This document shows, one piece after another, positions 23,569 through 40,167 of a DNA stretch of 64,000 nucleotides. The stretch covers positions 588,977 through 652,976 of the forward strand of contig CAZSUC010000001.1 of assembly GCA_964610055.1 (NCBI GenBank). Direction: 5' to 3'. Each line of letters begins with the position of its first letter. Position 1 is the first letter of the stretch. A program made the position numbers and the translations under genes. The notes beneath the pieces are model-generated. The model ran no database searches, was not told the DNA's origin, and saw only the letters and a list, made by a program, of their open reading frames with translations. This DNA comes from an uncultured Candidatus Saccharibacteria bacterium. GTDB lineage: Bacteria > Patescibacteriota > Andersenbacteria > UBA10190.

Positions 23569-26346
23569 ATGTTACAACGACTCTGGCAAACAGAACGCTC
23601 CGGAATTATATGGATCGGACTTACTTGGTTTTTTTTCTTCGTCCGTATTCTCAGTGGTACTCATGTTTATTTTCTCGATGACCTCAAATTATTTTATTAC
23701 CCCATTGAAACCATCTACGCTGAGTTTCAACATTCTGGCCACCTACCTCTTTGGAGTAACGTTTTTGGTTTCGGACACCCCTTACTTGCCTGGGGACAAC
23801 TTGGCTTCTTCACTCCCTTACATTTTCTGCTTCGCGCACTTTATATCCCCGCCCTGAATCTTCTTCAAATTTCACTGGTCACTTATTTTGCCATTGGTCT
23901 CTCGGGACTATACACCTTTCTCCGCCAGTGTCGCCTCTCACCGCTTGCCTCAGCTTTTGGTAGTATCGTCTTTATCTTTGCCGGATTCAATATTGGTCAC
24001 TTAAATCATGTGAATTTTTACGTTGGCACCATGGTTCTACCATGGCTCTTAGTTGCCATTCTACGTTTCACTAAACAACCCTCTTTGCGTTTATCAAGCA
24101 TTGTTGCTTTACTTGGCGCCACTATCGCTGTCAGTGCTCAGCCCCAAATCGTGGCTTATTGTTTTGTTATCGCTGGCATTACAGCCATCATTTTTTTCGT
24201 TCATCATTTTTTTTCTCTGACACGCTCACATCGTCTCCATTATCTTATTCATTTTCTCGTTTTGGGCATTATTGCCACTATCCTAGCCTTGGGTATTTCT
24301 TCAATTACCCTGCTTCCTCTTTTTGAGTTCTTACCATATACAGAACGTAGCGCCGGACTCAGCACCACTGAGCTTCTCGACTTCAGCTTTCCTCCCTACC
24401 ATTTTATTACTTTCCTTGCTCCTTATTTCTTCGGAGACCATGCCAATTATTGGGGCCCTAAAGGCTTTCAAGAACTTGCTGCCTATACTGGCATGATTCC
24501 GCTTTTACTTGCTGCTAGTTCGCTTTTCTCTTGGCGCACGCATCGCCCTCTTCGTATCCTTGGTCTCGCTTTAATCTGCTTTAGTCTCCCGTTACTCCTC
24601 GGTTCATATTCCCCGTTATATCGTTACCTTGTCTCACATGAGATTATTTCTGCCCTTTCTATTCCTGGACGATTCGTTTTACTTCTTGATTTTGGTCTCG
24701 CTCTTCTGGCTGCCATCGGTTTATCTGATTTCTTAAACCAAAAACTAAAACTATCACGTTATTTTGGGGCCATTCTCATTACCATTGCCATTTTTCTGCC
24801 TTTTGCCTATACCGCCACACTTACCCCTCAAATTCGCCTCCGTCTTTATCAGCTAATCAGTCAACTCAACTGGTCTTTTCTCCTAGCTGGTCTCGGATTT
24901 ATTGCCACTCTCTGGGCTTGGCTCTGGCCATTTCGACTCCAACGTCGTCATTATGCTAGCATCCTTCTAGGTATCACAGCTTTTACTCTTATTGCTTACG
25001 GCTGGAGTTATAATCCCATTACTTCACGCGCTCAAGTTCAATCTACCTCTCCTTTACTAACTAACACTACTCTCATTACTCCCGCTCGAATTTTCAGTCA
25101 GCACCAGCTTCTCATTTCTCAAGCTGCCACTAAATTGCATACTACTGAGGATCTTTCACCTTCTTTCTCAATCAAACAACCAATCTTCACCTGGCCAGAG
25201 TCTGGTTGTTTTTCCATTGCCATGCACGCGAAACCAGAAATTAACTCTCACATTACCGTCACTATATCCAGTGATCTTGATAGTCGTGAAATCCTCGCCT
25301 CTCAATCAATTGCCAGTAGTCTTATCACTTCAAACGACAATCAAATTATCTGTTTTCCTTCTTTTACTCCGACAGCCGATCAAAACCTCATCTTGTCTTT
25401 CACGAGCTTAACTGATTCTGGCGTTAATCTATATTACCAATCCGAACCAGCCACCAGCTCAACATATCTAATCAGAGTTGCGAACCCAACTCTCAGTCAG
25501 CTTCAAGCATCAGCAAAACCAGGTCAAATTATGTATCAAACATACGATTTTGACGACACCGAATCGATCACTTTAAATCGTCATCTTAACGCCGCTGCTG
25601 GTTTAAGTAGTGCAAATTGGATTGGATCGCTCTCAATTCTATCGTATCGAGAATTTGTTGATACTTTCTTCGGTAATGATCAGGAAAACGTCGATGGTGA
25701 CGGTCATCATGTTTTAGCAAAAAATCGTCATATTTTTAACATGGCTAGCGTCAATTATTTTGCTCAAATCTTGAATCCCAACACTCAGGATATTATGCCA
25801 TCAGCTGATTTCTCAGAAGAATCTGTGTATCAATTCGGCGACAAAACCGCTAAGCTTTACTTTAACCCCGAAGCTTTTCCTAAAGCCTATTTAGTACGCA
25901 ATGCCGAATATGTACCCCCTGCCGACGAAGCTCGCACAATTATGCTTGATCCCGAATTCAACCCTTCTCAACTTGTTCTTATTAGCGGAACAAGCGAACC
26001 TAAACATTTACCTGCGTATAGCTCCGACCCAATCAATGGCACAGTTAATACAACCGTTTACGAGCCAACTCGTATTGACATTGACGTCACTACTGATACC
26101 GAAGCTTGGCTTGTAGTCACTGATGCTAGTATCCCTTTATGGCAAACTTATATTGATGGCGAACTTGCCCCATACTATGTTGCTAACACCGTGTTCAAAA
26201 CTGCTCGTGTTCCTGCCGGAAATCACACCGTCAGCTTTCGCTATATATCGCCAGCTACTCAATTAGCTTCCAAACTATGTCTTTCTGCTTTAGCTATTAG
26301 TATATTGATATTAATTATTCCTTTTAAGCGCCTTTCTCATAAATGA
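23569..26346 (+). CDS. YfhO-family membrane glycosyltransferase-like protein
   Basis: 925 aa, multi-TM N-terminal half with YfhO-type loop motifs (PLWSNVFGFGHPLLA) and a large extracytoplasmic C-terminal region. Confidence 0.7.
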   Translation: MLQRLWQTERSGIIWIGLTWFFFFVRILSGTHVYFLDDLKLFYYPIETIYAEFQHSGHLPLWSNVFGFGHPLLAWGQLGFFTPLHFLLRALYIPALNLLQISLVTYFAIGLSGLYTFLRQCRLSPLASAFGSIVFIFAGFNIGHLNHVNFYVGTMVLPWLLVAILRFTKQPSLRLSSIVALLGATIAVSAQPQIVAYCFVIAGITAIIFFVHHFFSLTRSHRLHYLIHFLVLGIIATILALGISSITLLPLFEFLPYTERSAGLSTTELLDFSFPPYHFITFLAPYFFGDHANYWGPKGFQELAAYTGMIPLLLAASSLFSWRTHRPLRILGLALICFSLPLLLGSYSPLYRYLVSHEIISALSIPGRFVLLLDFGLALLAAIGLSDFLNQKLKLSRYFGAILITIAIFLPFAYTATLTPQIRLRLYQLISQLNWSFLLAGLGFIATLWAWLWPFRLQRRHYASILLGITAFTLIAYGWSYNPITSRAQVQSTSPLLTNTTLITPARIFSQHQLLISQAATKLHTTEDLSPSFSIKQPIFTWPESGCFSIAMHAKPEINSHITVTISSDLDSREILASQSIASSLITSNDNQIICFPSFTPTADQNLILSFTSLTDSGVNLYYQSEPATSSTYLIRVANPTLSQLQASAKPGQIMYQTYDFDDTESITLNRHLNAAAGLSSANWIGSLSILSYREFVDTFFGNDQENVDGDGHHVLAKNRHIFNMASVNYFAQILNPNTQDIMPSADFSEESVYQFGDKTAKLYFNPEAFPKAYLVRNAEYVPPADEARTIMLDPEFNPSQLVLISGTSEPKHLPAYSSDPINGTVNTTVYEPTRIDIDVTTDTEAWLVVTDASIPLWQTYIDGELAPYYVANTVFKTARVPAGNHTVSFRYISPATQLASKLCLSALAISILILIIPFKRLSHK

Positions 26347-28313
26347 AAATTTCACTCGTCTTTGTTTCTCTTTGGGGGCTTATTTCACTTTGTCTTTCAC
26401 TTGGCTTATTTTATCTCGCTAATCAAGCTCCTAATACTCTTAAGGCCTTACCTGTAATTGACGCACCTACCTGGCTAACTTATGGTCTCTGGCAAGGACT
26501 TCTGGTCGGATCCGCTTTCTTATGTACCGTTTTGCTGATTAATCGTTTACCCCGCCATCGTTGGTTAGCTGCCAGTATCGCACTCGTCATTTTTACTCCT
26601 CTAGCCATTGGTGGTTTTTGGTTTTCTACCTCCAATCTTGGCATTTCTGACTGGGATTATTATTTTTCTTATCACGAAGTTTTACGTCAAGGTATTCTCG
26701 TTCATCACACTTTTCCTTTTTGGAATCCATATATTTGCGGCGGTACCGCCGGCTTAGGCGATCCCGAATTTCCTGTCTTTACTCCTACATTCTTGTTAGA
26801 GCTCATCTTTGGTATTCCAATCGGATTTCGTCTCGCTATTATGTTTTCAACTGCCATGACCGCTCTTGGCATGCTTATGCTAGGTAAGCGCTTAAAACTT
26901 TCAGTTAATGCTTCTCTACTTGCTGCTTTAGTTGTTGCTTTTGGCAGCGTTAACTTACTAGAAATTGTTGAAGGCCATCCTAACATTTTTTCGGCCATGT
27001 GGGTACCATGGATATTTTGGGCCTGGCTTGCGGAGTATAAATCTTTTCGTCTTAAACACTCCATCCTAACCGGCACCTTCTTAGCTCTCACTTTCTTCCA
27101 GGGCGGAATTTATATGCTGATGTACGTCACAATTACTCTGGGTCTCTTAATTATCTTCCTTCCAAAACATAAACGCTCATTTCTTATTACCGCTACTGCT
27201 GGTTTATGGGCTCTGGGCTTCGCTGCCATTAAACTTATCCCTGTCTTATTTTGGTTAAACCAATTTCAAGACCAAGTATATGCCAGCTCAGCTAACACAT
27301 TATTATCTTTACATAAAATTCTTCTCGGCCGTTTTCTTCATGGAGAAACTAATGCCAATCTCATTTCAAGCCAAGGTAGTGGATGGCATGAATATGGCGC
27401 TTATATTGGCCCGATCGCCTTCGCCCTCGCCTTTGTTCGTCTCTCTCGTCTAAAAACACACCGTCTCACTCAACTTTTAATTGCTTTTGCTTTAATTTTC
27501 CTTCTCTTCTCAGCTTTAGGACCAACTCTAAAGCCCTTCTTCAATCAAGTCTCTTATTTCCCTCGCTCTAATATCTCCCGCATTATCCTATTTGCAGTTT
27601 TACCTTTAGCCTTATTAGCCGGACAAGGTCTAGATCAATTTTCCAAACGCTTTAAATATCTTGGCGCCGCTATCGTCGGGTTAGCCGCTATTGATCTCTT
27701 TTCTCTGGCTTACCCGTTATCATTACAAGCTTTTACTCTCGTGCCTGCTGTACCCACTCCAGAAACCGCTGCTTATCCCTTAGAACGCACTGTCGGCACT
27801 TTCATGGTTCGTTCTAACGGAGTTGACTACACTCGTGCTTACACTGCTATCAAATCTGGCTATGGCACCGAAACCTATTGCTCAGTTCTTACTCCAACTA
27901 ATTCTACTACCGCTATAGAAGAAGGCGAATCAGATCAAGACCGCGCCTACGTCACCTTATCAAATTCAAATGACGGTACAACCCAGCTACTTGATTGGAA
28001 CTATAACCGAGTAGCAGTCAGTGTTAATTCCTCACAACCGACTCAAGTGATCCTTAACAGTAATTATGCCTCTGGTTGGCTCACTAACGGTAAACCAGCC
28101 AAAGAAATTAACAATCGCCTAGGCGCATCTATTCCCAAAGGACACAGTGAAATCATTTTTACTTACCGTTCACCTGGGTTTATAGCCGGCTTAGTTGTTA
28201 CTTTACTTTCGTTAATAGCAGCCCTTACAAGCTATATCTTCTCCACCACAAAATATTTCAACTCTGGACACGCTTCTATCCCTGATAAAGACTCCGTTTT
28301 ACCATCACGATAA
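26343..28313 (+). CDS. YfhO-like polytopic membrane protein
   Basis: FPFWNPYICGGTAGLGDPEFP matches the YfhO-type W-N-P-Y-I-x-GG loop. 656 aa. ATGA start overlap with the upstream gene. Confidence 0.6.
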   Translation: MKISLVFVSLWGLISLCLSLGLFYLANQAPNTLKALPVIDAPTWLTYGLWQGLLVGSAFLCTVLLINRLPRHRWLAASIALVIFTPLAIGGFWFSTSNLGISDWDYYFSYHEVLRQGILVHHTFPFWNPYICGGTAGLGDPEFPVFTPTFLLELIFGIPIGFRLAIMFSTAMTALGMLMLGKRLKLSVNASLLAALVVAFGSVNLLEIVEGHPNIFSAMWVPWIFWAWLAEYKSFRLKHSILTGTFLALTFFQGGIYMLMYVTITLGLLIIFLPKHKRSFLITATAGLWALGFAAIKLIPVLFWLNQFQDQVYASSANTLLSLHKILLGRFLHGETNANLISSQGSGWHEYGAYIGPIAFALAFVRLSRLKTHRLTQLLIAFALIFLLFSALGPTLKPFFNQVSYFPRSNISRIILFAVLPLALLAGQGLDQFSKRFKYLGAAIVGLAAIDLFSLAYPLSLQAFTLVPAVPTPETAAYPLERTVGTFMVRSNGVDYTRAYTAIKSGYGTETYCSVLTPTNSTTAIEEGESDQDRAYVTLSNSNDGTTQLLDWNYNRVAVSVNSSQPTQVILNSNYASGWLTNGKPAKEINNRLGASIPKGHSEIIFTYRSPGFIAGLVVTLLSLIAALTSYIFSTTKYFNSGHASIPDKDSVLPSR

Positions 28314-31659: not shown

Positions 31660-33930
31660 ATGTCGCCTTTTTCTCGTCCTTACTTTGCCTTATTAATTGT
31701 TAGCGCTTTAGCGCTCTGGCCGCTTTTTTTCGGCCGTTTTTACGGTATTGGCGATACACGCTCCGTTTATATTCCCATCGAGCATTTTTTTGCTGAGCAA
31801 CAACGGCACTTTAATTTACCGGCCTGGATGCCAGACACTGCTTGGGGTTTTCCGGTAATTGCTTCTGCTCAAATCGGTTTCTTTTATCCGCCTCTTTTAC
31901 TGACACGCTTCTTACCTATCTTTATTTACCTGCCGTTATTACTCTGGCTCCACATCTTTTTTCTCGGTATCGGCGCCTATCGTTTGGCCCGAACCCTAAA
32001 TATTAGTCAAAACGGCGCCCTGATTACCGCCCTATCCATTGCTCTTAACGCCTTTCTTTGGCAGCACTTAACCCACCTAAACATTATTTTTGCTTTGGCT
32101 TGGTTTCCTTGGCAATTACTCGCCGCTCATTACTTAGCCAGATCACATCGACCTAATTTCAAACAATTTGCCGGCTTAGTTTTCACTTTAGGCCTCCCGT
32201 TTTTAGCTGGCCAACTTCAAGTTCCTTTTCTCACCGCTCTTTTCTCTACCATTTATTATTTCGTTTCTTTACCCAAAAAGCCTTTCCCCTCTCGACATCT
32301 CCTCATTTTCCTCGGCGCAACTCTTTTGACTATTACTCTCACCGCCGTCCAAACATTTCCCACCCTAGAGCTCACATTCCTTTCCAGCCGTGGATCAACT
32401 AATGAATTTTCTTTGGAACGAGCTAATCAACATAGTTTTCCTATTTATCATCTACCCACCTTACTTTTTCCACGCTTTTTCGGCTCAGATAATACTTATT
32501 GGGGGAAACGTATTGAAATAGAATACGGCTTTTTCTTCGGCGTCATTCCGCTATGCCTCAGCTTTATTGCTATATTCAACAAATCACGTCGTTACCGTTT
32601 CTGGATTATCAGCGGCTTCATAGCTTTTCTGTTAAGCCTGGGCGAATTTTCTCCTTTTCGCTTAGTTGGCTTAGAGCCATCGCTCTGGTACTTTTCTGCT
32701 CCCGCCCGTTGGCTATTCTTCACCGTTTTTTCTGGATCAATCCTTGCTGGTTTTGGTTATGATCTTTTGCCTAATATCTCACCTCGTTACCTGCGCATCC
32801 TTAAATCAACTATTGTAACCATATTAAGCTGCGTCATTTTATATAATCTCGTCCTTTGGCTCTTGCCGGAAAATTTTGCTTCTTATGTTCTAACCTGGTT
32901 GCAATCACAAAATCTCACCGGCGCTCGCGATTCAGCCTATTATTTAGATAAGATTAATTCCTTACTCTCCTCTGCAAAACACACGGGCTTATCACTTGCT
33001 TCGCCATATACTTACATCACTCTCATTCCTTTGCTCGCCATTCCATGGCTCTTCCAAAAACATCACTCGTGGCTTATTCCTCTCACAGCTATTGAACTCA
33101 TCTTAATTGCCAGTACGGCCAATCCAAGTGTTACTTGGTCCAATATTCTAACTCCTCCTGCCAGCATCTCTGCCCTTCCTCAAAGTGTTACCAGCGATCA
33201 CGCTCGCATCATTTCAATCTCAGCTCCCGGCGATACAGGGCTTTGGCTAACTAACCCTGAAACCCGTGCCGATACCGCTCGTCGCGAACAATATCGTCAA
33301 CAACTCGAACCACTCACTCACTCACTTTTTAATCTTGCCGGTTCTCAATGGCCCGCCTCGCTGGATCTACAATCTCAGGCACATACTTTAGAAAATTTAC
33401 TCGAATCACGCCAAGATCAACTATACATTGATTCTGACAAAGCCGCTGCTCTCAATATCGGTGCTGCCTTAATTGCCAACGAAGCTCCCCACACTGTTTC
33501 AGAAGTACTACCCCAAAATATTGCACCGAATATCTTCTTGTATTCCTTCTCTCCTCAACCTCGCGCTTCTCTTTTAACTGAAGACCAAACCGAATTAGCG
33601 CTTCCATACGACAACACTAATCCTAATCACCAAACTTATACCCTCTCATCATCTACTCCCGCGACCCTTATTATTCGCGACACCTGGTACCCTGGTTGGC
33701 AAGCCACACTTGACGACCAACCCGTTAACATTGATACCTATAACAATATTTTCCGTTCTGTTTCGGTTCCCTCCGGATCACATACCGTTTCTTTCACCTA
33801 TCATCCTACTTGGCTTTATTACGGTCTAGCTATTTCGCTTACCACTCTTGGTTTTCTAATATTTGTGCTGATGTACAATAATCATATCTACACTGTTCCC
33901 TTTATTTTAAGGAGGAAGACCATTGGCTGA
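31660..33930 (+). CDS. YfhO-family membrane protein
   Basis: 756 aa. The N-terminal region is paralogous to 23569-26346 (GIGDTRSVYIPIEHFFAEQQ...NLPAWMPDTAWGFPVIA versus LDDLKLFYYPIETIYAEFQ...HLPLWSNVFGFGHPLLA). Confidence 0.7.
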   Translation: MSPFSRPYFALLIVSALALWPLFFGRFYGIGDTRSVYIPIEHFFAEQQRHFNLPAWMPDTAWGFPVIASAQIGFFYPPLLLTRFLPIFIYLPLLLWLHIFFLGIGAYRLARTLNISQNGALITALSIALNAFLWQHLTHLNIIFALAWFPWQLLAAHYLARSHRPNFKQFAGLVFTLGLPFLAGQLQVPFLTALFSTIYYFVSLPKKPFPSRHLLIFLGATLLTITLTAVQTFPTLELTFLSSRGSTNEFSLERANQHSFPIYHLPTLLFPRFFGSDNTYWGKRIEIEYGFFFGVIPLCLSFIAIFNKSRRYRFWIISGFIAFLLSLGEFSPFRLVGLEPSLWYFSAPARWLFFTVFSGSILAGFGYDLLPNISPRYLRILKSTIVTILSCVILYNLVLWLLPENFASYVLTWLQSQNLTGARDSAYYLDKINSLLSSAKHTGLSLASPYTYITLIPLLAIPWLFQKHHSWLIPLTAIELILIASTANPSVTWSNILTPPASISALPQSVTSDHARIISISAPGDTGLWLTNPETRADTARREQYRQQLEPLTHSLFNLAGSQWPASLDLQSQAHTLENLLESRQDQLYIDSDKAAALNIGAALIANEAPHTVSEVLPQNIAPNIFLYSFSPQPRASLLTEDQTELALPYDNTNPNHQTYTLSSSTPATLIIRDTWYPGWQATLDDQPVNIDTYNNIFRSVSVPSGSHTVSFTYHPTWLYYGLAISLTTLGFLIFVLMYNNHIYTVPFILRRKTIG

Positions 33931-34126
33931 TGACAAAGACCAAGACGAACGAAACCGACGACTTACAGAAGCCCTTGCGCCGTTAGGGCGAGGCGAGCTT
34001 CCTGACGGTACACCCATTGACCTAGCCGCCATCTCTGAACGTGCAAATCGGAAAGCCTGGATTTTTGCGCGCCGGCTTAGAGATAGCGCAGTACGTGACA
34101 ACCGCCGATACAAGGGTCAACACTAG
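33923..34126 (+). CDS. Small basic hypothetical protein, TTG start (paralog 1)
   Basis: TTG at 33923 lies 8 nt after AGGAGG. The 67-aa product shares ERNR(R/Q)LT.AL.PL...DL.AI... and a C-terminal YKG with the ORF at 34285. A strong intrinsic terminator follows. Confidence 0.55.
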   Translation: MADDKDQDERNRRLTEALAPLGRGELPDGTPIDLAAISERANRKAWIFARRLRDSAVRDNRRYKGQH

Positions 34127-34141
34127 CCCACCTCCTTACGT

Positions 34142-34169
34142 CCCGTGCCACATCGGCACGGGCTTTTTT
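34142..34169 (+). terminator. Rho-independent terminator after small paralog 1
   Basis: CCCGTGCC-ACATC-GGCACGGG 8-bp GC-rich stem followed by C+TTTTTT. Confidence 0.75.
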
Positions 34170-34284
34170 ACAATTTATTCCGTCCCAGTCTCTCATACCG
34201 GTATAAAATTTCTACTTTTGTAGATCGATATAGTATATTAACTTTATCTTTTGTTCCCTTCACTTTTAGTAGGAGGATAAACCG

Positions 34285-34476
34285 TTGGATAATGAAAACG
34301 AACGAAACCGACAACTTACCGTGGCTCTCAATCCATTAAGGACAGGTCTATCATTATCTGACCTCTCCGCAATCGCTGACCATGCCACAGACGACGCCAT
34401 GTCGCATGCCAAAGCAGTTCGTTCAGGAACAGCAAGGACCAGAGCTAAACACAGGTTAGGCCCATACAAAGGCTGA
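34285..34476 (+). CDS. Small basic hypothetical protein, TTG start (paralog 2)
   Basis: Same SD and TTG context as 33923 (AGGAGGATAAACCGTTGGAT). 63 aa, with protein-level similarity to paralog 1. Confidence 0.55.
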   Translation: MDNENERNRQLTVALNPLRTGLSLSDLSAIADHATDDAMSHAKAVRSGTARTRAKHRLGPYKG

Positions 34477-34509
34477 CCTTTGCGCACCATCACAGTCAGG
34501 AGAATTTTC

Positions 34510-34788
34510 ATGGCAGCAGAAACTTATCATTTCATCCTTTTAGGAAGCCCTCTCTCACGAACAGACTTCCTTAATCCGCTTAAAAGGCGGATACAATTCG
34601 ACATGGGCAAGACAGCTCTCGCTCAAGTCCCAGGCATACGTTTCGGTACCGAATTTCCTATTGCTTGCGCCGTAACCATCACCTGCCCGCGAGAATCACT
34701 GCCAGAACTCCACCGGATCATGACTGAACACAGTTTTCAAGAAGGTAGCCAGGAGATTTCAATCAAAACAGCCAGAGAAATCGCCTAA
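34510..34788 (+). CDS. Hypothetical protein
   Basis: 92-aa ORF from an ATG with an AGGAGA SD 7 nt upstream. Followed by a hairpin plus T-run. Confidence 0.45.
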   Translation: MAAETYHFILLGSPLSRTDFLNPLKRRIQFDMGKTALAQVPGIRFGTEFPIACAVTITCPRESLPELHRIMTEHSFQEGSQEISIKTAREIA

Positions 34789-34814
34789 CACACCTCCTCC
34801 TTCATCATCCTACT

Positions 34815-34841
34815 CCACCAAGCCAGTCTTGGTGGATTTTT
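34815..34841 (+). terminator. Rho-independent terminator between the convergent 34510 (+) and 34840 (-) genes
   Basis: CCACCAAG-CCAGT-CTTGGTGG 8-bp stem followed by ATTTTT. Confidence 0.65.
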
Positions 34842-36135
34842 ATATCCACATCCTATCAATCAATTCTCGCGGTTGTCCGTACCGTAATCGATTTACCGCC
34901 TGCACCTCTACCTTCCCTATAGCCGTTTCTAAACTTAACGGCGGCAAACTCTGCCCCCGAAATGCTCGGTACGTAATTCCGGCCTGAGTCAGACGGATAA
35001 AAAAGTGATATGGCGGCAAGTCCTGAAAATCCTCCACTTGAATCGCCTGCCCCTTATCCCACGATGTTTGCTGAAAGGCCGGCAGTAACGCTTCCGCATC
35101 ATTTGCCCCTATTTGAAAAGCCACCAACGTTCCTACATTACCCAACACCGCCTCTCGCACCTCGTCAGTTAATTGCGCCACATACTGATTAGTTAAATGC
35201 ACAGCTAATCCGTACTTGCGCGCTTCCGACAACATAGAAATGAATGTTTCCGTCATCACATTCTGAAATTCATCGACGTATAAATAAAAGGGAACCCTGT
35301 CTTCGACCGGCATATCGGCACGACGCATTATCGCCGCCTGTAACTTTGCCATCAAAATCAATCCCAACATATATGAATTTAATTCTCCCAGTCTTCCTTT
35401 AGACAAATTCACAATCAAAATTTTGCCATGATTCACAATCTCATCAAACGCCAAAGCATTGCGCTTCTGACCGATGATATTGCGCATCGTCGTATTTGTC
35501 ATAAAGCGACCAAACTTGGAAGTAAAATAATTCAACATTTCCGAGCGATGAAACTGCGCGGTTTTTGCCATCTGCTCTTCCCAAAATGACAATACGACCC
35601 GATCTCGCACATGGCGACGTTTTTCTTGCTCAAATTTTTCATCCGTAAATAAGCGCGGAATCTCAATCAAAGTTCCGCCCGCCGGATCGGCCATAACTGT
35701 TAAAGCCGCATTTCGCATCCAGTGTTCAAACTGCGGCCCAATAATTCCCTGCTGATCCGGATCAAATAGTTTATAAAATATCTGAATCGCCTCGGCCACC
35801 AAAAAATCTTTCTCACTTTCAGTTTTACCATCCAATAAGTTCAAGCCTAATGGCCATTCCGTATCAGCCGGATCAAACAACACTACATCATCCAACCGCT
35901 CCGCCGGAATATTATTTAACAGCCAATCGCACACTTCTCCATGCGGATCAACAAAACAACACCCCGCCCCAGCCTGAATATCCTGCAAAATCATATTTTG
36001 ATACAAAGTCGATTTACCCGTCCCAGTTTTTCCAATGCAATACATATGTCGCATCCGATCTTGCGGTGCTGTTTGAATACTGCGCATTTGATTGCGAAAT
36101 TCAGCGTGTCCAATTACATTCATTCTTTCTGTCAT
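34840..36135 (-). CDS. Soluble VirD4/TraD/TraG-like P-loop ATPase (FtsK-HerA superfamily, type IV coupling-protein-like)
   Basis: Walker A CIGKTGTGKST, downstream FVDPHGE (DPxGE motif) and Walker B FYLYVDEFQNV. No N-terminal TM segment. Terminal gene of a 4-gene minus-strand operon. Confidence 0.65.
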   Translation of the reverse strand: MTERMNVIGHAEFRNQMRSIQTAPQDRMRHMYCIGKTGTGKSTLYQNMILQDIQAGAGCCFVDPHGEVCDWLLNNIPAERLDDVVLFDPADTEWPLGLNLLDGKTESEKDFLVAEAIQIFYKLFDPDQQGIIGPQFEHWMRNAALTVMADPAGGTLIEIPRLFTDEKFEQEKRRHVRDRVVLSFWEEQMAKTAQFHRSEMLNYFTSKFGRFMTNTTMRNIIGQKRNALAFDEIVNHGKILIVNLSKGRLGELNSYMLGLILMAKLQAAIMRRADMPVEDRVPFYLYVDEFQNVMTETFISMLSEARKYGLAVHLTNQYVAQLTDEVREAVLGNVGTLVAFQIGANDAEALLPAFQQTSWDKGQAIQVEDFQDLPPYHFFIRLTQAGITYRAFRGQSLPPLSLETAIGKVEVQAVNRLRYGQPRELIDRMWI

Positions 36136-38044: not shown

Positions 38045-39895
38045 TTAGACCATCATTGTCCGATTAACAGTTGTGCCACCCGTAATCTGACTGGATCTTA
38101 TCGTTCCTTCCTCTTCATCTTCTGTTCCTATAATTATCCCGCCACGATGACGCGCTTCTGCCGCTAACTCAATCTCTGTCCCTCTTTGCTTAATCTGACC
38201 AACATAATTATCTAAATCTACTCGCCAACCCGGCTTCTCTCTTTCATTTCTCCAATTTTCTCTTTCCGCCTCTGCTCTCCATTCATATCCAACCGGACCA
38301 TCTGTCACTTGCTCTAAACTATCCGGCTTCGTTTTCGCCTCATAAAAACGATACCTAACTGCATCCCCATCTCGCTCCACTACCGTTACATCCAACACTT
38401 CGCCTTTTACCGTACGCTCTCCCGAAAAATACTGCTGTTCTCTGTTTACTGCGCCTCTAATCACTTTTTCTAGCTCTCCTCGCTCTTCCACCGGCCACAA
38501 ATCCATCACACTCTTTTCTATTTGCTCCGGCATCAACGTTAAAGCGACTTTCTCTTCCATATCTAACTCAACATCAATACCCTGAATTTCCTCTCTTCTT
38601 ACCTCCGCCTTATAAACCGTTTCTACCTTCGGGTACTCTTTCTTTTCCCCAACCTTCACATCTACATTCACATCTACATCTATATTCTCTACATTATTTT
38701 CTCTTCCCTTTTCTAAAATCACTGGTCTTTCAGCTATTTTTTTCTCCTCCGTAATCGCAACTTCAACTCTTTCCTTAACTCTCGTAACGCTTTGCTCCGA
38801 TAAAACCTGGTCGGCTTTCACATCCACCGCTTTCGGCACTAGTCCCGGAAACATCTCCTGTAAACTCACTTCTACTTTCCTAGATTCATTTTTCTGTCCT
38901 AAATCAGTTTGCACTACTTCTGGCATTGAAGCAGCTTCTCTTTCCCCCGCATTTACATACTTTATCTCTATGGCTTCACTCGGCGTATTTTCTATCACCC
39001 GTACCTCTCCTGTCTTCGTCTCACCAGGTTCCTCTTGCTTTAACAACTCCTTACGCAACTCCTCATGATTCCAAACTTCTTCTAGCTGCGGCTCTTCAAC
39101 CTGCCTCTGCTCCACAAACACATCAGAATTAATCGTATTTTCAGATGCTTGTTCTTCTAGTTCTTCTCTTTGATCATCTACTTCCACTCTTTCACCAACC
39201 ATATCCATCGCATTTATATAATTTATCTCAATGCCTTCACTCGACGTATTTTCTATCACTTGCACCTCTTCTTCTCTCACCTCATTGCTTTGCTGTTCTT
39301 GTACCACTACCACTTCTTCTCTAACAAGCTCTTCACTTATCTCATCAACCATACTTTCTGCTTGCGCTTCAATCTCTACTTGTTCTACTTGCGCTTCATC
39401 TTCACTGCCTATCCACTCGTCGCTTTCTTCATTCAAATTAACCGGTACTTCACGAAATTGCACTAACATATATTCTGTTTCTCGTTCTCCCCACTCATTC
39501 ACTTCGTCTTTGACCACCACTGCACAACTTTTAAACTCATGATAAGCCACATATCCACTTTTCGCGCCACATAATGTTTCAAATTGCCCTTCTTCATCCA
39601 TTCCTTCACTACTAATCTCCTGATCATTCCAAAATACCCGTCTCTTACCAGTCGCGTCTTCCCTCACCACGCATTTATATGTCTGCGCCATTTCTAGTCT
39701 TTGCCCTGTCCCTTGCTCTAAATCAACTCGAGCTGATTCTAATCTCATTGTCATTCGCTCATGTTCTTCTGTCTGGCGTTCCTTTTCCGATGCTAATTCT
39801 TCTGCTTGAACCTGTACCTCAGATTCAATCTCTTCAACATCCAACATTTCCTCTAGGCTTTCTTCGGTTTCCGCTATGTTTATACTTTCAGGCAT
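38045..39895 (-). CDS. Highly acidic glutamate-rich protein with an internal sequence repeat (no recognisable domain)
   Basis: 616 aa from the ATG at 39895, which lies 9 nt after AGGAG. Low-complexity E/V/Q-rich sequence with duplicated segment QVIENTSSEGIEINYINA / RVIENTPSEAIEIKYVNA. Less acidic C-terminal 150 aa. The ORF-track start at 39925 would include the SD. Confidence 0.6.
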   Translation of the reverse strand: MPESINIAETEESLEEMLDVEEIESEVQVQAEELASEKERQTEEHERMTMRLESARVDLEQGTGQRLEMAQTYKCVVREDATGKRRVFWNDQEISSEGMDEEGQFETLCGAKSGYVAYHEFKSCAVVVKDEVNEWGERETEYMLVQFREVPVNLNEESDEWIGSEDEAQVEQVEIEAQAESMVDEISEELVREEVVVVQEQQSNEVREEEVQVIENTSSEGIEINYINAMDMVGERVEVDDQREELEEQASENTINSDVFVEQRQVEEPQLEEVWNHEELRKELLKQEEPGETKTGEVRVIENTPSEAIEIKYVNAGEREAASMPEVVQTDLGQKNESRKVEVSLQEMFPGLVPKAVDVKADQVLSEQSVTRVKERVEVAITEEKKIAERPVILEKGRENNVENIDVDVNVDVKVGEKKEYPKVETVYKAEVRREEIQGIDVELDMEEKVALTLMPEQIEKSVMDLWPVEERGELEKVIRGAVNREQQYFSGERTVKGEVLDVTVVERDGDAVRYRFYEAKTKPDSLEQVTDGPVGYEWRAEAERENWRNEREKPGWRVDLDNYVGQIKQRGTEIELAAEARHRGGIIIGTEDEEEGTIRSSQITGGTTVNRTMMV

Positions 39896-40167
39896 ACAAA
39901 AAACTCCTACATGCACAACACGCATGAGGAGAAATCACTAAAAATCCTTATGCGCGTAGGCTCAACAAAGGATTCAGGCACTCTGACTTATGGCTTTTAG
40001 CCCATCACAGTTGCGGCATACCAGCGCCGGATTCTCACCGGCTTTCCCTGATCACACTTTTCAGTGCGCGTGGTGCGAACCACGCCAATCCTCTTTAAAA
40101 ATTAATGTGCACTCTTAGCTTACCGCCGTTCCCTTGGCCCCACAATCAGTTTTTTGCACAGGCTCGT

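What the first reader, a model, noticed from the sequence alone, without database searches (positions are those of the whole stretch)
33905..34480. Tandem pair of TTG-initiated small paralogous genes with duplicated SD and start context
Both copies have AGGAGG, 8 nt, then TTGG.T.ATG. The TTG frame gives 67- and 63-aa basic proteins sharing ERNR(R/Q)LT(E/V)AL(A/N)PL...DL(A/S)AI... and a C-terminal YKG. The ATG 6 nt downstream of each TTG is in another frame and terminates after 15-18 codons. Protein-level conservation after nucleotide divergence argues that the TTG frame is real. Copy 1 is followed by a strong terminator. An A/T-rich putative promoter lies before copy 2. They may be regulators or small effector proteins of the adjacent ATPase operon.
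Basis: seen in the sequence. Interest (0 to 1): 0.55.

Follow-up and report, generated by a model that had tools for sequence, protein, structure and literature searches.

The report
Tandem pair of small basic-protein genes
Two neighbouring TTG-started genes in a Patescibacteria (CPR) genome really do encode ~65-residue basic two-helix proteins of a rare family absent from the libraries searched, but nothing ties them to the neighbouring ATPase and their function is unknown.

Summary
ORFs 33923-34126 (67 aa) and 34285-34476 (63 aa) are paralogues (34% identity, E=5e-8). Each starts at the only canonical start codon available upstream of the conserved N-terminal motif, a TTG 7-8 nt after AGGAGG. 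These are the only two AGGAGG hexamers on the + strand of the 64-kb window.

The TTG frame is the real one. An exhaustive HMMER search found nine other 62-71-residue proteins (one called with an N-terminal extension, 105 aa). A profile built from those alone scores copy 1 at 59 bits and copy 2 at 51 bits, while the antisense and alternative-ATG frames score about 0. Only this frame stays open in all eight loci examined.

AlphaFold predicts two helices joined by a short loop for both copies, read here as a hairpin. All members are basic, with the charge in the C-terminal half, and the homologues end in [YFW]-x-Gly.

No match was found in Pfam, NCBIfam, PHROGs, PADLOC, PDB sequences or fold libraries.

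The proposed link to the ATPase operon is not supported. None of 75 loci with orthologues of that VirD4-like ATPase carries a family member. The homologues sit singly among unrelated housekeeping genes.

Copy 2 is missing from the public protein collection; gene callers took the antisense ORF. The function is unknown. My best guess, held weakly, is a nucleic-acid- or ribosome-binding accessory protein.

The parts
33894..33919 (+). Upstream part of duplicated unit 1 (TGTTCCCTTTATTTTAAGGAGGAAGA). It includes the Shine-Dalgarno AGGAGG at 33910-33915 and lies inside the 3' end of the YfhO-like gene.
   Evidence: family D2 shows 81% identity to 34252-34277. Searches place the AGGAGG.
33923..34126 (+). 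Copy 1: a TTG-started gene for a 67-aa basic protein predicted as two helices joined by a short loop. It overlaps the stop of the upstream YfhO-like gene by 8 nt.
   Evidence: pLDDT 87.8; helices 2-22 and 34-66. One search gives 58.8 bits against a profile of external homologues. One search gives a codon-usage log-odds of +18.8. One search shows the overlap.
34131..34138 (+). CCTCCTTA, the exact reverse complement of the copy 1 SD region TAAGGAGG (33908-33915). It sits between the stop codon and the terminator.
   Evidence: One search confirms the complementarity. In one search both the MFE and the centroid fold pair it with the SD. Its function is not shown.
34142..34171 (+). Intrinsic terminator after copy 1 (CCCGTGCC-ACATC-GGCACGGG followed by CTTTTTT).
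34172..34251 (+). A/T-rich spacer and presumed promoter region for copy 2. No convincing consensus promoter was found.
   Evidence: One search gives 29.6% GC over 34163-34270. One search finds only the match at 34145-34174.
34252..34277 (+). Upstream part of duplicated unit 2 (TGTTCCCTTCACTTTTAGTAGGAGGA), including the Shine-Dalgarno AGGAGG at 34271-34276.
34285..34476 (+). Copy 2: a TTG-started gene for a 63-aa basic two-helix protein ending ...YKG. It is not present in the public protein collection; gene callers called the antisense ORF 34266-34511(-) instead.
   Evidence: One search gives 50.9 bits. One search gives pLDDT 78.7 with helices 2-19 and 24-58. One search gives +11.6.
34510..34788 (+). 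A 92-aa ORF 33 nt downstream of copy 2, with its own AGGAGA SD. It is probably co-transcribed with copy 2. No homologue was found in any fetched locus.
   Evidence: One search gives a codon-usage log-odds of +14.9.
34814..34836 (+). Intrinsic terminator closing the copy 2 / 92-aa transcription unit.

Best explanation
These are two genuine, tandemly duplicated protein-coding genes. They belong to a rare family of small proteins found in none of the libraries searched.

Family features:
- Length 62-71 residues.
- Consensus M-x(2-8)-[EK]R-x-x-[KR]L-x-x-AL-x-x-L-x-x-G-E-x-x-DG-x-P-[IL]-[DN]-[LF]-x-x-IA ... G-Q-x-R-T-R-x-K-x-R-x-x-R-[YFW]-x-G-stop.

Translation and transcription:
- Each gene is translated from a TTG that follows a strong AGGAGG Shine-Dalgarno.
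- Copy 1 is read through from, or translationally coupled to, the upstream YfhO-like gene and ends at its own terminator.
- Copy 2 is transcribed from the A/T-rich spacer together with a lineage-specific 92-aa ORF.

Predicted product:
- Two helices joined by a short loop, which I read as a soluble hairpin. Helix packing was not inspected.
- The conserved Leu/Ala positions look like a helix-helix packing face (inference from their spacing).
- In a hairpin, the conserved R10 and the Arg/Lys-rich C-terminal tail with its terminal aromatic-basic-Gly would lie together at the open end.

Inferred, not shown: that basic end binds a polyanion, most likely RNA (for example the ribosome) or DNA. The protein would then be a stand-alone accessory factor rather than part of the neighbouring ATPase system. 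The two diverged copies may act as homo- or heterodimers.

My confidence that the genes are real and belong to this family is about 0.9. My confidence in nucleic-acid binding is about 0.3.
For: Coding frame:
- The exhaustive HMMER search found nine other small homologues, 62-71 aa; one is called with an N-terminal extension at 105 aa.
- A profile of those nine alone scores copy 1 at 58.8 bits and copy 2 at 50.9 bits. The antisense and alternative-ATG translations score about 0.
- Only the family frame is free of internal stops in all 8 loci.
- Codon-usage log-odds are +18.8 and +11.6, against 22 +/- 8 for true + strand genes of the window and -27 +/- 11 for shifted frames.

Start codon:
- The TTG is the only canonical start in frame before the conserved N-terminal motif.
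- Homologues start at the equivalent position with ATG or GTG, three of the seven behind a clear SD-like GGAG/GAGG core.
- AGGAGG occurs on the + strand only at these two sites in 64 kb.

Transcription units: terminators lie at 34142-34162 and 34814-34836.

Fold and chemistry:
- AlphaFold gives two helices for both copies, with pLDDT 87.8 and 78.7.
- No hydrophobic segment is present; the maximum 19-residue Kyte-Doolittle score is below 0.9.
- pI ranges from 7.9 to 11.7, and the last 20 residues carry a net charge of +3 to +9 in all 11 members.

Stand-alone nature:
- Homologues are single-copy.
- Their neighbours are unrelated: a restriction-modification pair with L9/L27/CTP synthase, Sua5 with SHMT, ATP synthase gamma, and a Zn-ribbon protein with a deoxyribosyltransferase.
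Against: - No experiment or detectable homology supports any function.
- The family is rare and patchy. Only 12 cluster representatives reached E<=1e-3, two of them spurious repeat proteins. That argues against a core ribosomal or nucleoid role.
- Copy 1 has lost the G-Q-x-R-T motif and carries a 2-residue extension past the otherwise terminal Gly. Copy 2 has lost 4 residues of the conserved loop. One or both may be degenerating.
- dN/dS between the copies is uninformative.
Confidence: 0.55

Rival explanations
1. The proteins are small regulators, adaptors or secreted substrates of the adjacent VirD4/TraG-like coupling-protein ATPase (34840-36135, minus strand). In the substrate version, the positively charged C-terminal tail would be the recognition signal.
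For: - The genes lie within 400 nt of the 3' end of a VirD4/TrwB-like ATPase (TrwB_AAD_bind 1.4e-7, TraG-D_C 1.7e-6).
- The C-terminal 20 residues carry a net charge of +3 to +9 in all members.
- From my own knowledge, not tested here: Agrobacterium VirB/D4 substrates use Arg-rich, positively charged C-terminal signals.
Against: - None of 75 loci with orthologues of this ATPase, with up to 8 kb of flank on each side, encodes a family member in any of six frames.
- No homologue locus contains a similar ATPase.
- The genes are convergent with the ATPase, not in the same operon.
- No virB4 or other T4SS channel gene was seen among the neighbours scanned.
- PMC12102498 reports that most Patescibacteria VirD4-like genes are orphan copies.
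Confidence: 0.07
2. The real gene at copy 2, and perhaps at copy 1, is the antisense ORF: 34266-34511(-) of 81 aa and 33907-34113(-) of 68 aa. This is what automatic gene callers chose for copy 2.
For: - Prodigal-type calls in two public contigs annotate the antisense ORF, at 81 or 74 aa, in place of copy 2.
- The antisense frame shares third codon positions with the TTG frame, so synonymous-looking changes do not discriminate between them (codon table together with the coordinates).
- The antisense frame of copy 2 has a positive codon-usage score of +8.5.
Against: - Antisense frames contain stop codons in most homologue loci.
- Antisense translations score about 0 against the family profile.
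- No SD precedes the antisense ATG at 34511.
- The antisense products are Arg/Ser/Leu-rich, as expected for the shadow of a real gene.
- The terminators and SDs are on the + strand.
Confidence: 0.03
3. The pair is decaying duplicated DNA, or a pair of pseudogenes, with no protein product or no current function.
For: - Overall dN/dS between the copies is about 0.83, with saturated dS.
- Each copy departs from the family consensus in a different conserved segment.
- The G-poor + strand (15% G) makes TAG and TGA rare, so open frames are cheap.
Against: - Both frames are intact.
- Both keep a perfect AGGAGG at the right spacing, which is unique on this strand in 64 kb.
- Both still score 51-59 bits against an independent profile.
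- Both have gene-like codon usage.
- The N-terminal half shows dN/dS of about 0.5.
Confidence: 0.07
4. The protein is a conjugatable tag in the manner of Pup or UBact, attached through its conserved C-terminal glycine, or a RiPP-type precursor peptide. The tandem gene copies would then be typical precursor arrays.
For: - All nine external homologues and copy 2 end exactly at a Gly preceded by aromatic-x. Copy 1 ends ...YKGQH.
- The length of about 65 aa is similar to Pup.
- A ClpB-like AAA+ ATPase lies 2 kb away.
Against: - There is no Pfam Pup hit and no hit to any NCBIfam model.
- The proteins are basic and confidently helical, not acidic and disordered.
- No ligase, deamidase, proteasome or RiPP-maturation gene is conserved next to any member.
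- Conservation runs along the whole length rather than following a leader/core pattern.
Confidence: 0.03

Closest known systems
DUF5302 (Pfam PF17227), small actinobacterial proteins of unknown function
   Same: Similar size. Both have an N-terminal [KR]-x-K-[FL]-x-E-A-L motif and a basic C-terminus ending aromatic-R/K-...-Gly. I recalled this resemblance from memory and then tested it.
   Different: - No member here hits PF17227, even at E<=1.
- The profile-profile comparison gives probability 0.9% and E=0.06 over only 17 columns.
- DUF5302 has a Gly-rich middle where this family has the conserved G-E-x-x-DG-x-P-I-D-L loop and a long second helix.
Small basic two-helix ribosomal proteins (uL29, bS21 and similar)
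   Same: About 65 residues, basic and largely two helices. Expression signals are strong, and some homologues sit among housekeeping or translation genes.
   Different: - The only trace is a single weak TIGR00012 (L29) hit at E=0.036, in 1 of 11 members.
- There is no PDB sequence hit, and no ribosomal protein appears among significant fold matches.
- The family is far too rare to be a core ribosomal protein.
Pup / UBact prokaryotic ubiquitin-like tags
   Same: About 64 residues, with an ER-x-x-KLTE-like helix motif and a conserved extreme C-terminus involving Gly.
   Different: - Pup is acidic and disordered and ends GGQ or GGE; this family is basic, helical and ends [YFW]-x-G.
- There is no Pfam Pup match.
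- No PafA/Dop-type ligase domain was found in the window ORFs scanned.
VirB2-like pilin clusters of Patescibacteria T4SS loci (PMC12857230)
   Same: Multiple small, sequence-divergent two-helix paralogues encoded near T4SS-related genes in the same phylum.
   Different: - The proteins here have no signal peptide and no hydrophobic helices; the maximum Kyte-Doolittle 19-mer score is 0.22 for copy 1 and 0.87 for copy 2.
- They are strongly charged.
- No virB4 or virB6 was seen nearby.

Membership tests
Unnamed small-protein family defined here (P0002-P0008, P0010, P0012) | Significant match over the full length to a profile built only from external members | tested here: met
Unnamed small-protein family defined here | Loop motif G-E-x-x-D-G-x-P-[IL]-[DN]-[LF] between the two helices | tested here: inconclusive
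   Copy 1 has it (GELPDGTPIDL). Copy 2 has a 4-residue deletion there (GLSLS--DL).
Unnamed small-protein family defined here | Basic tail G-Q-x-R-T-R...R-[YFW]-x-G, with the Gly as the last residue | tested here: inconclusive
   Copy 2 meets it (SGTARTRAKHRLGPYKG-stop). Copy 1 lacks GQxRT and ends RRYKGQH, two residues past the Gly.
DUF5302 (PF17227) | Match to the Pfam model or to a profile of members | tested here: not met
   No hit at E<=1 for 11 members. hhalign gives probability 0.9%.
Pup (PF05639) / UBact | Match to the family model; acidic disordered protein ending GG[QE] or G[QE]; PafA/Dop-type ligase in the genome neighbourhood | tested here: not met
   No Pfam or NCBIfam hit. pI is 8-11.7. 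The models are confidently helical. No ligase domain was found in the neighbours.
   No Pfam, NCBIfam or PADLOC hit. The models have only two helices. No neighbour is conserved.
T4SS (VirB/D4) substrates | Positively charged, hydrophilic C-terminal signal | tested here: met
   The last 20 residues carry net +3 to +9 in all members. This feature is not specific.
T4SS (VirB/D4) substrates | Dependence on, or co-occurrence with, a T4CP or T4SS | tested here: not met
   0 of 75 T4CP-orthologue loci carry the family, and no homologue locus carries a T4CP. Genome-wide co-occurrence and translocation cannot be tested here.
VirB2-like pilins | Signal peptide and two hydrophobic helices | tested here: not met
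   The maximum 19-residue hydropathy is 0.22 for copy 1 and 0.87 for copy 2.
Ribosomal protein uL29 | Match to TIGR00012 / Pfam Ribosomal_L29 above the cut-off | tested here: not met
   Only 1 of 11 members has a sub-threshold hit at E=0.036. There is no Pfam hit.

The most novel reading that the evidence does not exclude
The family could be a lineage-restricted ribosome- or RNA-associated accessory protein of ultra-small bacteria. It would dock through the basic open end of the predicted hairpin (R10 plus the R-[YFW]-K-G C-terminus). In this genome it would have been duplicated into two complementary, partly degenerate copies that work as a heterodimer. An even less likely variant, about 0.05, is that the proteins are substrates or adaptors of the orphan VirD4-like coupling ATPases that are common in Patescibacteria.
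Probability: 0.12. Interest if true: 0.6.

Novelty: new member of a known kind. Interest (0 to 1): 0.3.

Why it matters
The value is modest.

- The work adds a bona fide small-protein family, absent from Pfam, NCBIfam, PHROGs and PADLOC, to the unannotated coding space of Patescibacteria and other uncultured bacteria.
- It corrects a strand error in automatic annotation: copy 2 is not in the public protein collection searched.
- It gives a clear case of TTG initiation supported by comparative evidence.
- It shows how an extreme strand composition bias (15% G on one strand) can mislead gene callers on small genes.
- It does not reveal a new mechanism, and it removes the suggested link to the ATPase operon.

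Tried and rejected
Library and collection searches:
1. Pfam, PHROGs, NCBIfam and PADLOC scans of both copies and of all 11 members found nothing meaningful.
2. A PDB sequence profile search gave only chance hits with E>=0.7.
4. An Rfam scan of 33000-35500 gave no RNA family, and the window has no tRNA.
5. tblastn against phage and plasmid collections gave no match. A viral-contig scan gave none either.
6. Metagenome scans with copy 1 and with a P0005/P0006 alignment recovered nothing new.

Specific ideas tested:
7. The DUF5302 resemblance was rejected by hhalign.
8. Pup/UBact, RiPP precursor, VirB2 pilin and antitoxin readings were rejected; see the membership tests.
9. The two large hits of the representative search, P0009 and P0011, are repeat-rich unrelated proteins.
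10. Nei-Gojobori dN/dS between the copies is saturated and not decisive.
11. A local SD-sequestering hairpin (UUCCCUU pairing with AAGGAGG) is predicted in both copies but is no more stable than shuffled sequence, z about 0.
12. Neighbour proteins of the different family loci share no similarity with each other.
Full report
**1. What is in the sequence**

Two + strand ORFs lie at the stated place:
- 33923-34126, TTG start, 67 aa.
- 34285-34476, TTG start, 63 aa.

Start context, read:
- Copy 1 has AGGAGG at 33910-33915, a 7-nt spacer and then TTG.
- Copy 2 has AGGAGG at 34271-34276, an 8-nt spacer and then TTG.
- Both starts read TTGG.T.ATG.
- The out-of-frame ATGs at 33930 and 34292 run 18 and 15 codons before a stop.

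The two products align at 34% identity, E=5e-8. They share ERNR(R/Q)LT.AL.PL, DL.AI and YKG.

The duplication includes about 30 nt upstream of the start. Segment 33894-33919 matches 34252-34277 at 81%, and a 52-nt intragenic segment matches at 73%.

Signals around the genes:
- An intrinsic terminator (34142-34162 plus a T run) follows copy 1.
- A second terminator (34814-34836) follows a 92-aa ORF (34510-34788). That ORF starts 33 nt after copy 2 and has its own AGGAGA SD.
- The spacer before copy 2 is 29.6% GC, but it holds no convincing consensus promoter.
- Copy 1 overlaps the stop of the upstream YfhO-like gene by 8 nt.

AGGAGG occurs on the + strand only twice in the 64-kb window, at exactly these two sites. 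Many long ORFs of the window have no SD core before their first start codon. These two SDs are therefore not background.

**2. Which frame is real**

This needed care, for two reasons:
- Both copies also carry long antisense ORFs, 33907-34113(-) and 34266-34511(-).
- The antisense frame shares third codon positions with the TTG frame. The synonymous-looking differences between the copies therefore do not discriminate between the strands.

In two public contigs identical to the window over 33881-34840, automatic gene calling annotated copy 1 but took the antisense ORF in place of copy 2. The copy 2 protein is absent from the 15-billion-sequence collection.

Four lines of evidence settle the question.

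(a) Homologues exist. An exhaustive HMMER search of 1.8 billion cluster representatives found nine other small proteins of 62-71 aa, one of them called with an N-terminal extension at 105 aa. They share the same pattern along the whole length.

(b) An independent profile recognises both copies. A profile built only from those nine scores copy 1 at 58.8 bits and copy 2 at 50.9 bits. Both antisense products and both alternative-ATG peptides score about 0.

(c) Only the family frame stays open. Across the eight loci for which I hold DNA, it is the only frame free of internal stops. The +1 (alternative-ATG) frame and, in most loci, the antisense frames are interrupted.

(d) Codon usage fits. Log-odds trained on the window's + strand genes give +18.8 and +11.6. 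True genes score 22 +/- 8 per 65 codons and shifted frames score -27 +/- 11.

dN/dS between the copies is saturated (dS 0.85, dN 0.70) and about 0.5 in the N-terminal half, so it adds little.

**3. TTG initiation**

- Each stop-to-stop frame begins only four codons upstream of the TTG and holds no other start codon there.
- Copy 1 has no other in-frame ATG, GTG or TTG at all.
- Copy 2 has only an ATG at residue 38 of 63, past the conserved N-terminal half.
- Homologues start at the equivalent position, 2-8 residues before the [EK]R..KL motif. They use ATG or GTG; three of the seven examined sit behind a clear SD-like GGAG/GAGG core, for example GAGGAGG-6 nt-ATG in L005 and GAGGAG-7 nt-GTG in L084.

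**4. The protein**

- AlphaFold2, with the eight permitted family sequences as alignment, predicts two helices for both copies. Copy 1 has helices 2-22 and 34-66 joined by a short loop (pLDDT 87.8). Copy 2 has helices 2-19 and 24-58 (pLDDT 78.7). I read this as a hairpin; the packing itself was not inspected.
- There is no hydrophobic segment.
- All members are basic, with pI 7.9-11.7. The charge sits in the C-terminal half, and the last 20 residues carry +3 to +9.
- The spacing of the conserved Leu/Ala positions suggests helix-helix packing.
- The conserved polar features are R10, the loop G-E..DG.P-I-D-L, G55 and the C-terminal R-[YFW]-x-G. In a hairpin, R10 and the C-terminus lie side by side at the open end (inference).
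- Copy 1 keeps the loop but has lost the GQxRT motif and runs two residues past the terminal Gly. Copy 2 keeps the tail but lacks four loop residues.

**5. Context and distribution**

The window is a Patescibacteria-type envelope-glycosylation region. It carries PMT_2 and YfhO-like genes, GT1 and GT2 glycosyltransferases and epimerases. The closest relatives of the neighbouring ATPase are MAGs labelled Saccharibacteria, Doudnabacteria and Berkelbacteria, at no more than 63% identity.

The ATPase at 34840-36135(-) is a VirD4/TraG-like coupling-protein homologue. Such genes are common and mostly orphan in this phylum (PMC12102498).

None of 75 loci with its orthologues encodes a family member in any frame. 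None of the other window neighbours I tested there (YfhO-like, 92 aa, 93 aa, 626 aa) is conserved beside the ATPase either. The ClpB-like gene was not included in that test.

The family members elsewhere are single-copy. Their neighbours are unrelated:
- A restriction-modification pair, then L9/L27/CTP synthase (L003).
- Sua5 and SHMT (L005).
- ATP synthase gamma (L082).
- A Zn-ribbon protein and a deoxyribosyltransferase (L083).
- Unknown proteins on a 59%-GC contig (L084), whose assembly prefix is cited by papers on deep-sea (marine) sediment metagenomes.

There is no phage or plasmid match.

**6. Comparison with known families**

Nothing was found in Pfam, NCBIfam, PHROGs, PADLOC, PDB sequences or the fold libraries.
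- I recalled a resemblance to DUF5302 (KRKFREALERK...FRRKSG). I confirmed the recollection against Pfam and then rejected the link by profile-profile comparison, with probability 0.9%.
- Pup/UBact, RHH, HTH and antitoxin, VirB2-pilin and uL29 readings each fail a defining feature; see the membership tests.

**7. Explanation and verdict**

Shown:
- The two genes are real, paralogous and TTG-initiated, and belong to a rare small-protein family absent from the libraries searched.
- They are organised as two transcription units.

Inferred:
- The protein is a soluble two-helix hairpin whose basic open end binds a polyanionic partner, most plausibly RNA, the ribosome or DNA.
- It acts on its own rather than with the ATPase.

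The functional link to the ATPase operon is not.

This is an ordinary small hypothetical-protein family with a tidy annotation correction. I found no evidence of a new mechanism.

Noticed in passing
window 1-64000: The window shows an extreme and uniform strand asymmetry. The + strand is 15.0% G and 28.7% C, giving a GC skew of -0.315, and every 2-kb bin lies between -0.14 and -0.49 whatever the gene orientation. Third-codon-position skew is -0.52 in + strand genes and +0.62 (coding strand) in - strand genes, so this is a mutational or replication-strand bias. Among 73 related Patescibacteria loci the median |skew| is 0.095; only two Collierbacteria loci reach about 0.30.
   Followed up: partly
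window 34131-34138 and 34793-34801: Anti-SD-like CCTCCT motifs lie directly after the stops of copy 1 (CCTCCTTA, the exact complement of its SD region TAAGGAGG) and of the 92-aa ORF (CCTCCTCCT). Each sits just 5' of a terminator. The MFE and centroid folds of the copy 1 transcript pair the SD with this 3' element (z=-2.4 for the whole fold). The motif is not seen after the stops of the homologues checked in L003 and L005. Read on the minus strand, the first motif is AGGAGG-7 nt-GTG for a 33-aa antisense ORF.
   Followed up: partly
window 34266-34511 (-): Public gene calls on identical contigs (L001, L002) annotate an antisense 74- or 81-aa ORF here instead of copy 2. The copy 2 protein sequence is absent from the 15-billion-protein collection.
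   Followed up: yes
window 34840-36135 (-): The 431-aa VirD4/TraG-like ATPase corresponds only to the C-terminal half of the roughly 850-aa ORFs that carry this domain in most related genomes (L016-L081). The PHROG alignment covers positions 387-797 of 824. The nine closest relatives (L007-L015) also have the short form. None of the other window neighbours tested (YfhO-like, 92 aa, 93 aa, 626 aa; the ClpB-like gene was not tested) is syntenic in relatives, and no virB4 was seen among the neighbours scanned.
   Followed up: partly
window 34510-34788 (+): A 92-aa ORF with its own SD and terminator is probably co-transcribed with copy 2. It has gene-like codon usage (+14.9), but no Pfam hit and no homologue in any of the 80-odd fetched loci.
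   Followed up: partly
window 304-63644 (starts of the 54 long ORFs): Many of the 54 long ORFs have no SD core (GGAG, GAGG or AGGA) 4-11 nt before their first start codon. SD use therefore appears to be the exception in this genome, which makes the perfect SDs of the small genes stand out.
   Followed up: no
L003 10319-11340: Downstream of the homologue P0012 lies about 1 kb with no called gene, no convincing ORF and no Rfam match.
   Followed up: partly
window 38045-39925 (-), 23569-26346 (+), 26343-28313 (+): Three large ORFs (626, 925 and 656 aa) have no Pfam domain at all. They sit inside a cluster of PMT_2 and YfhO-like glycosyltransferases.
   Followed up: no
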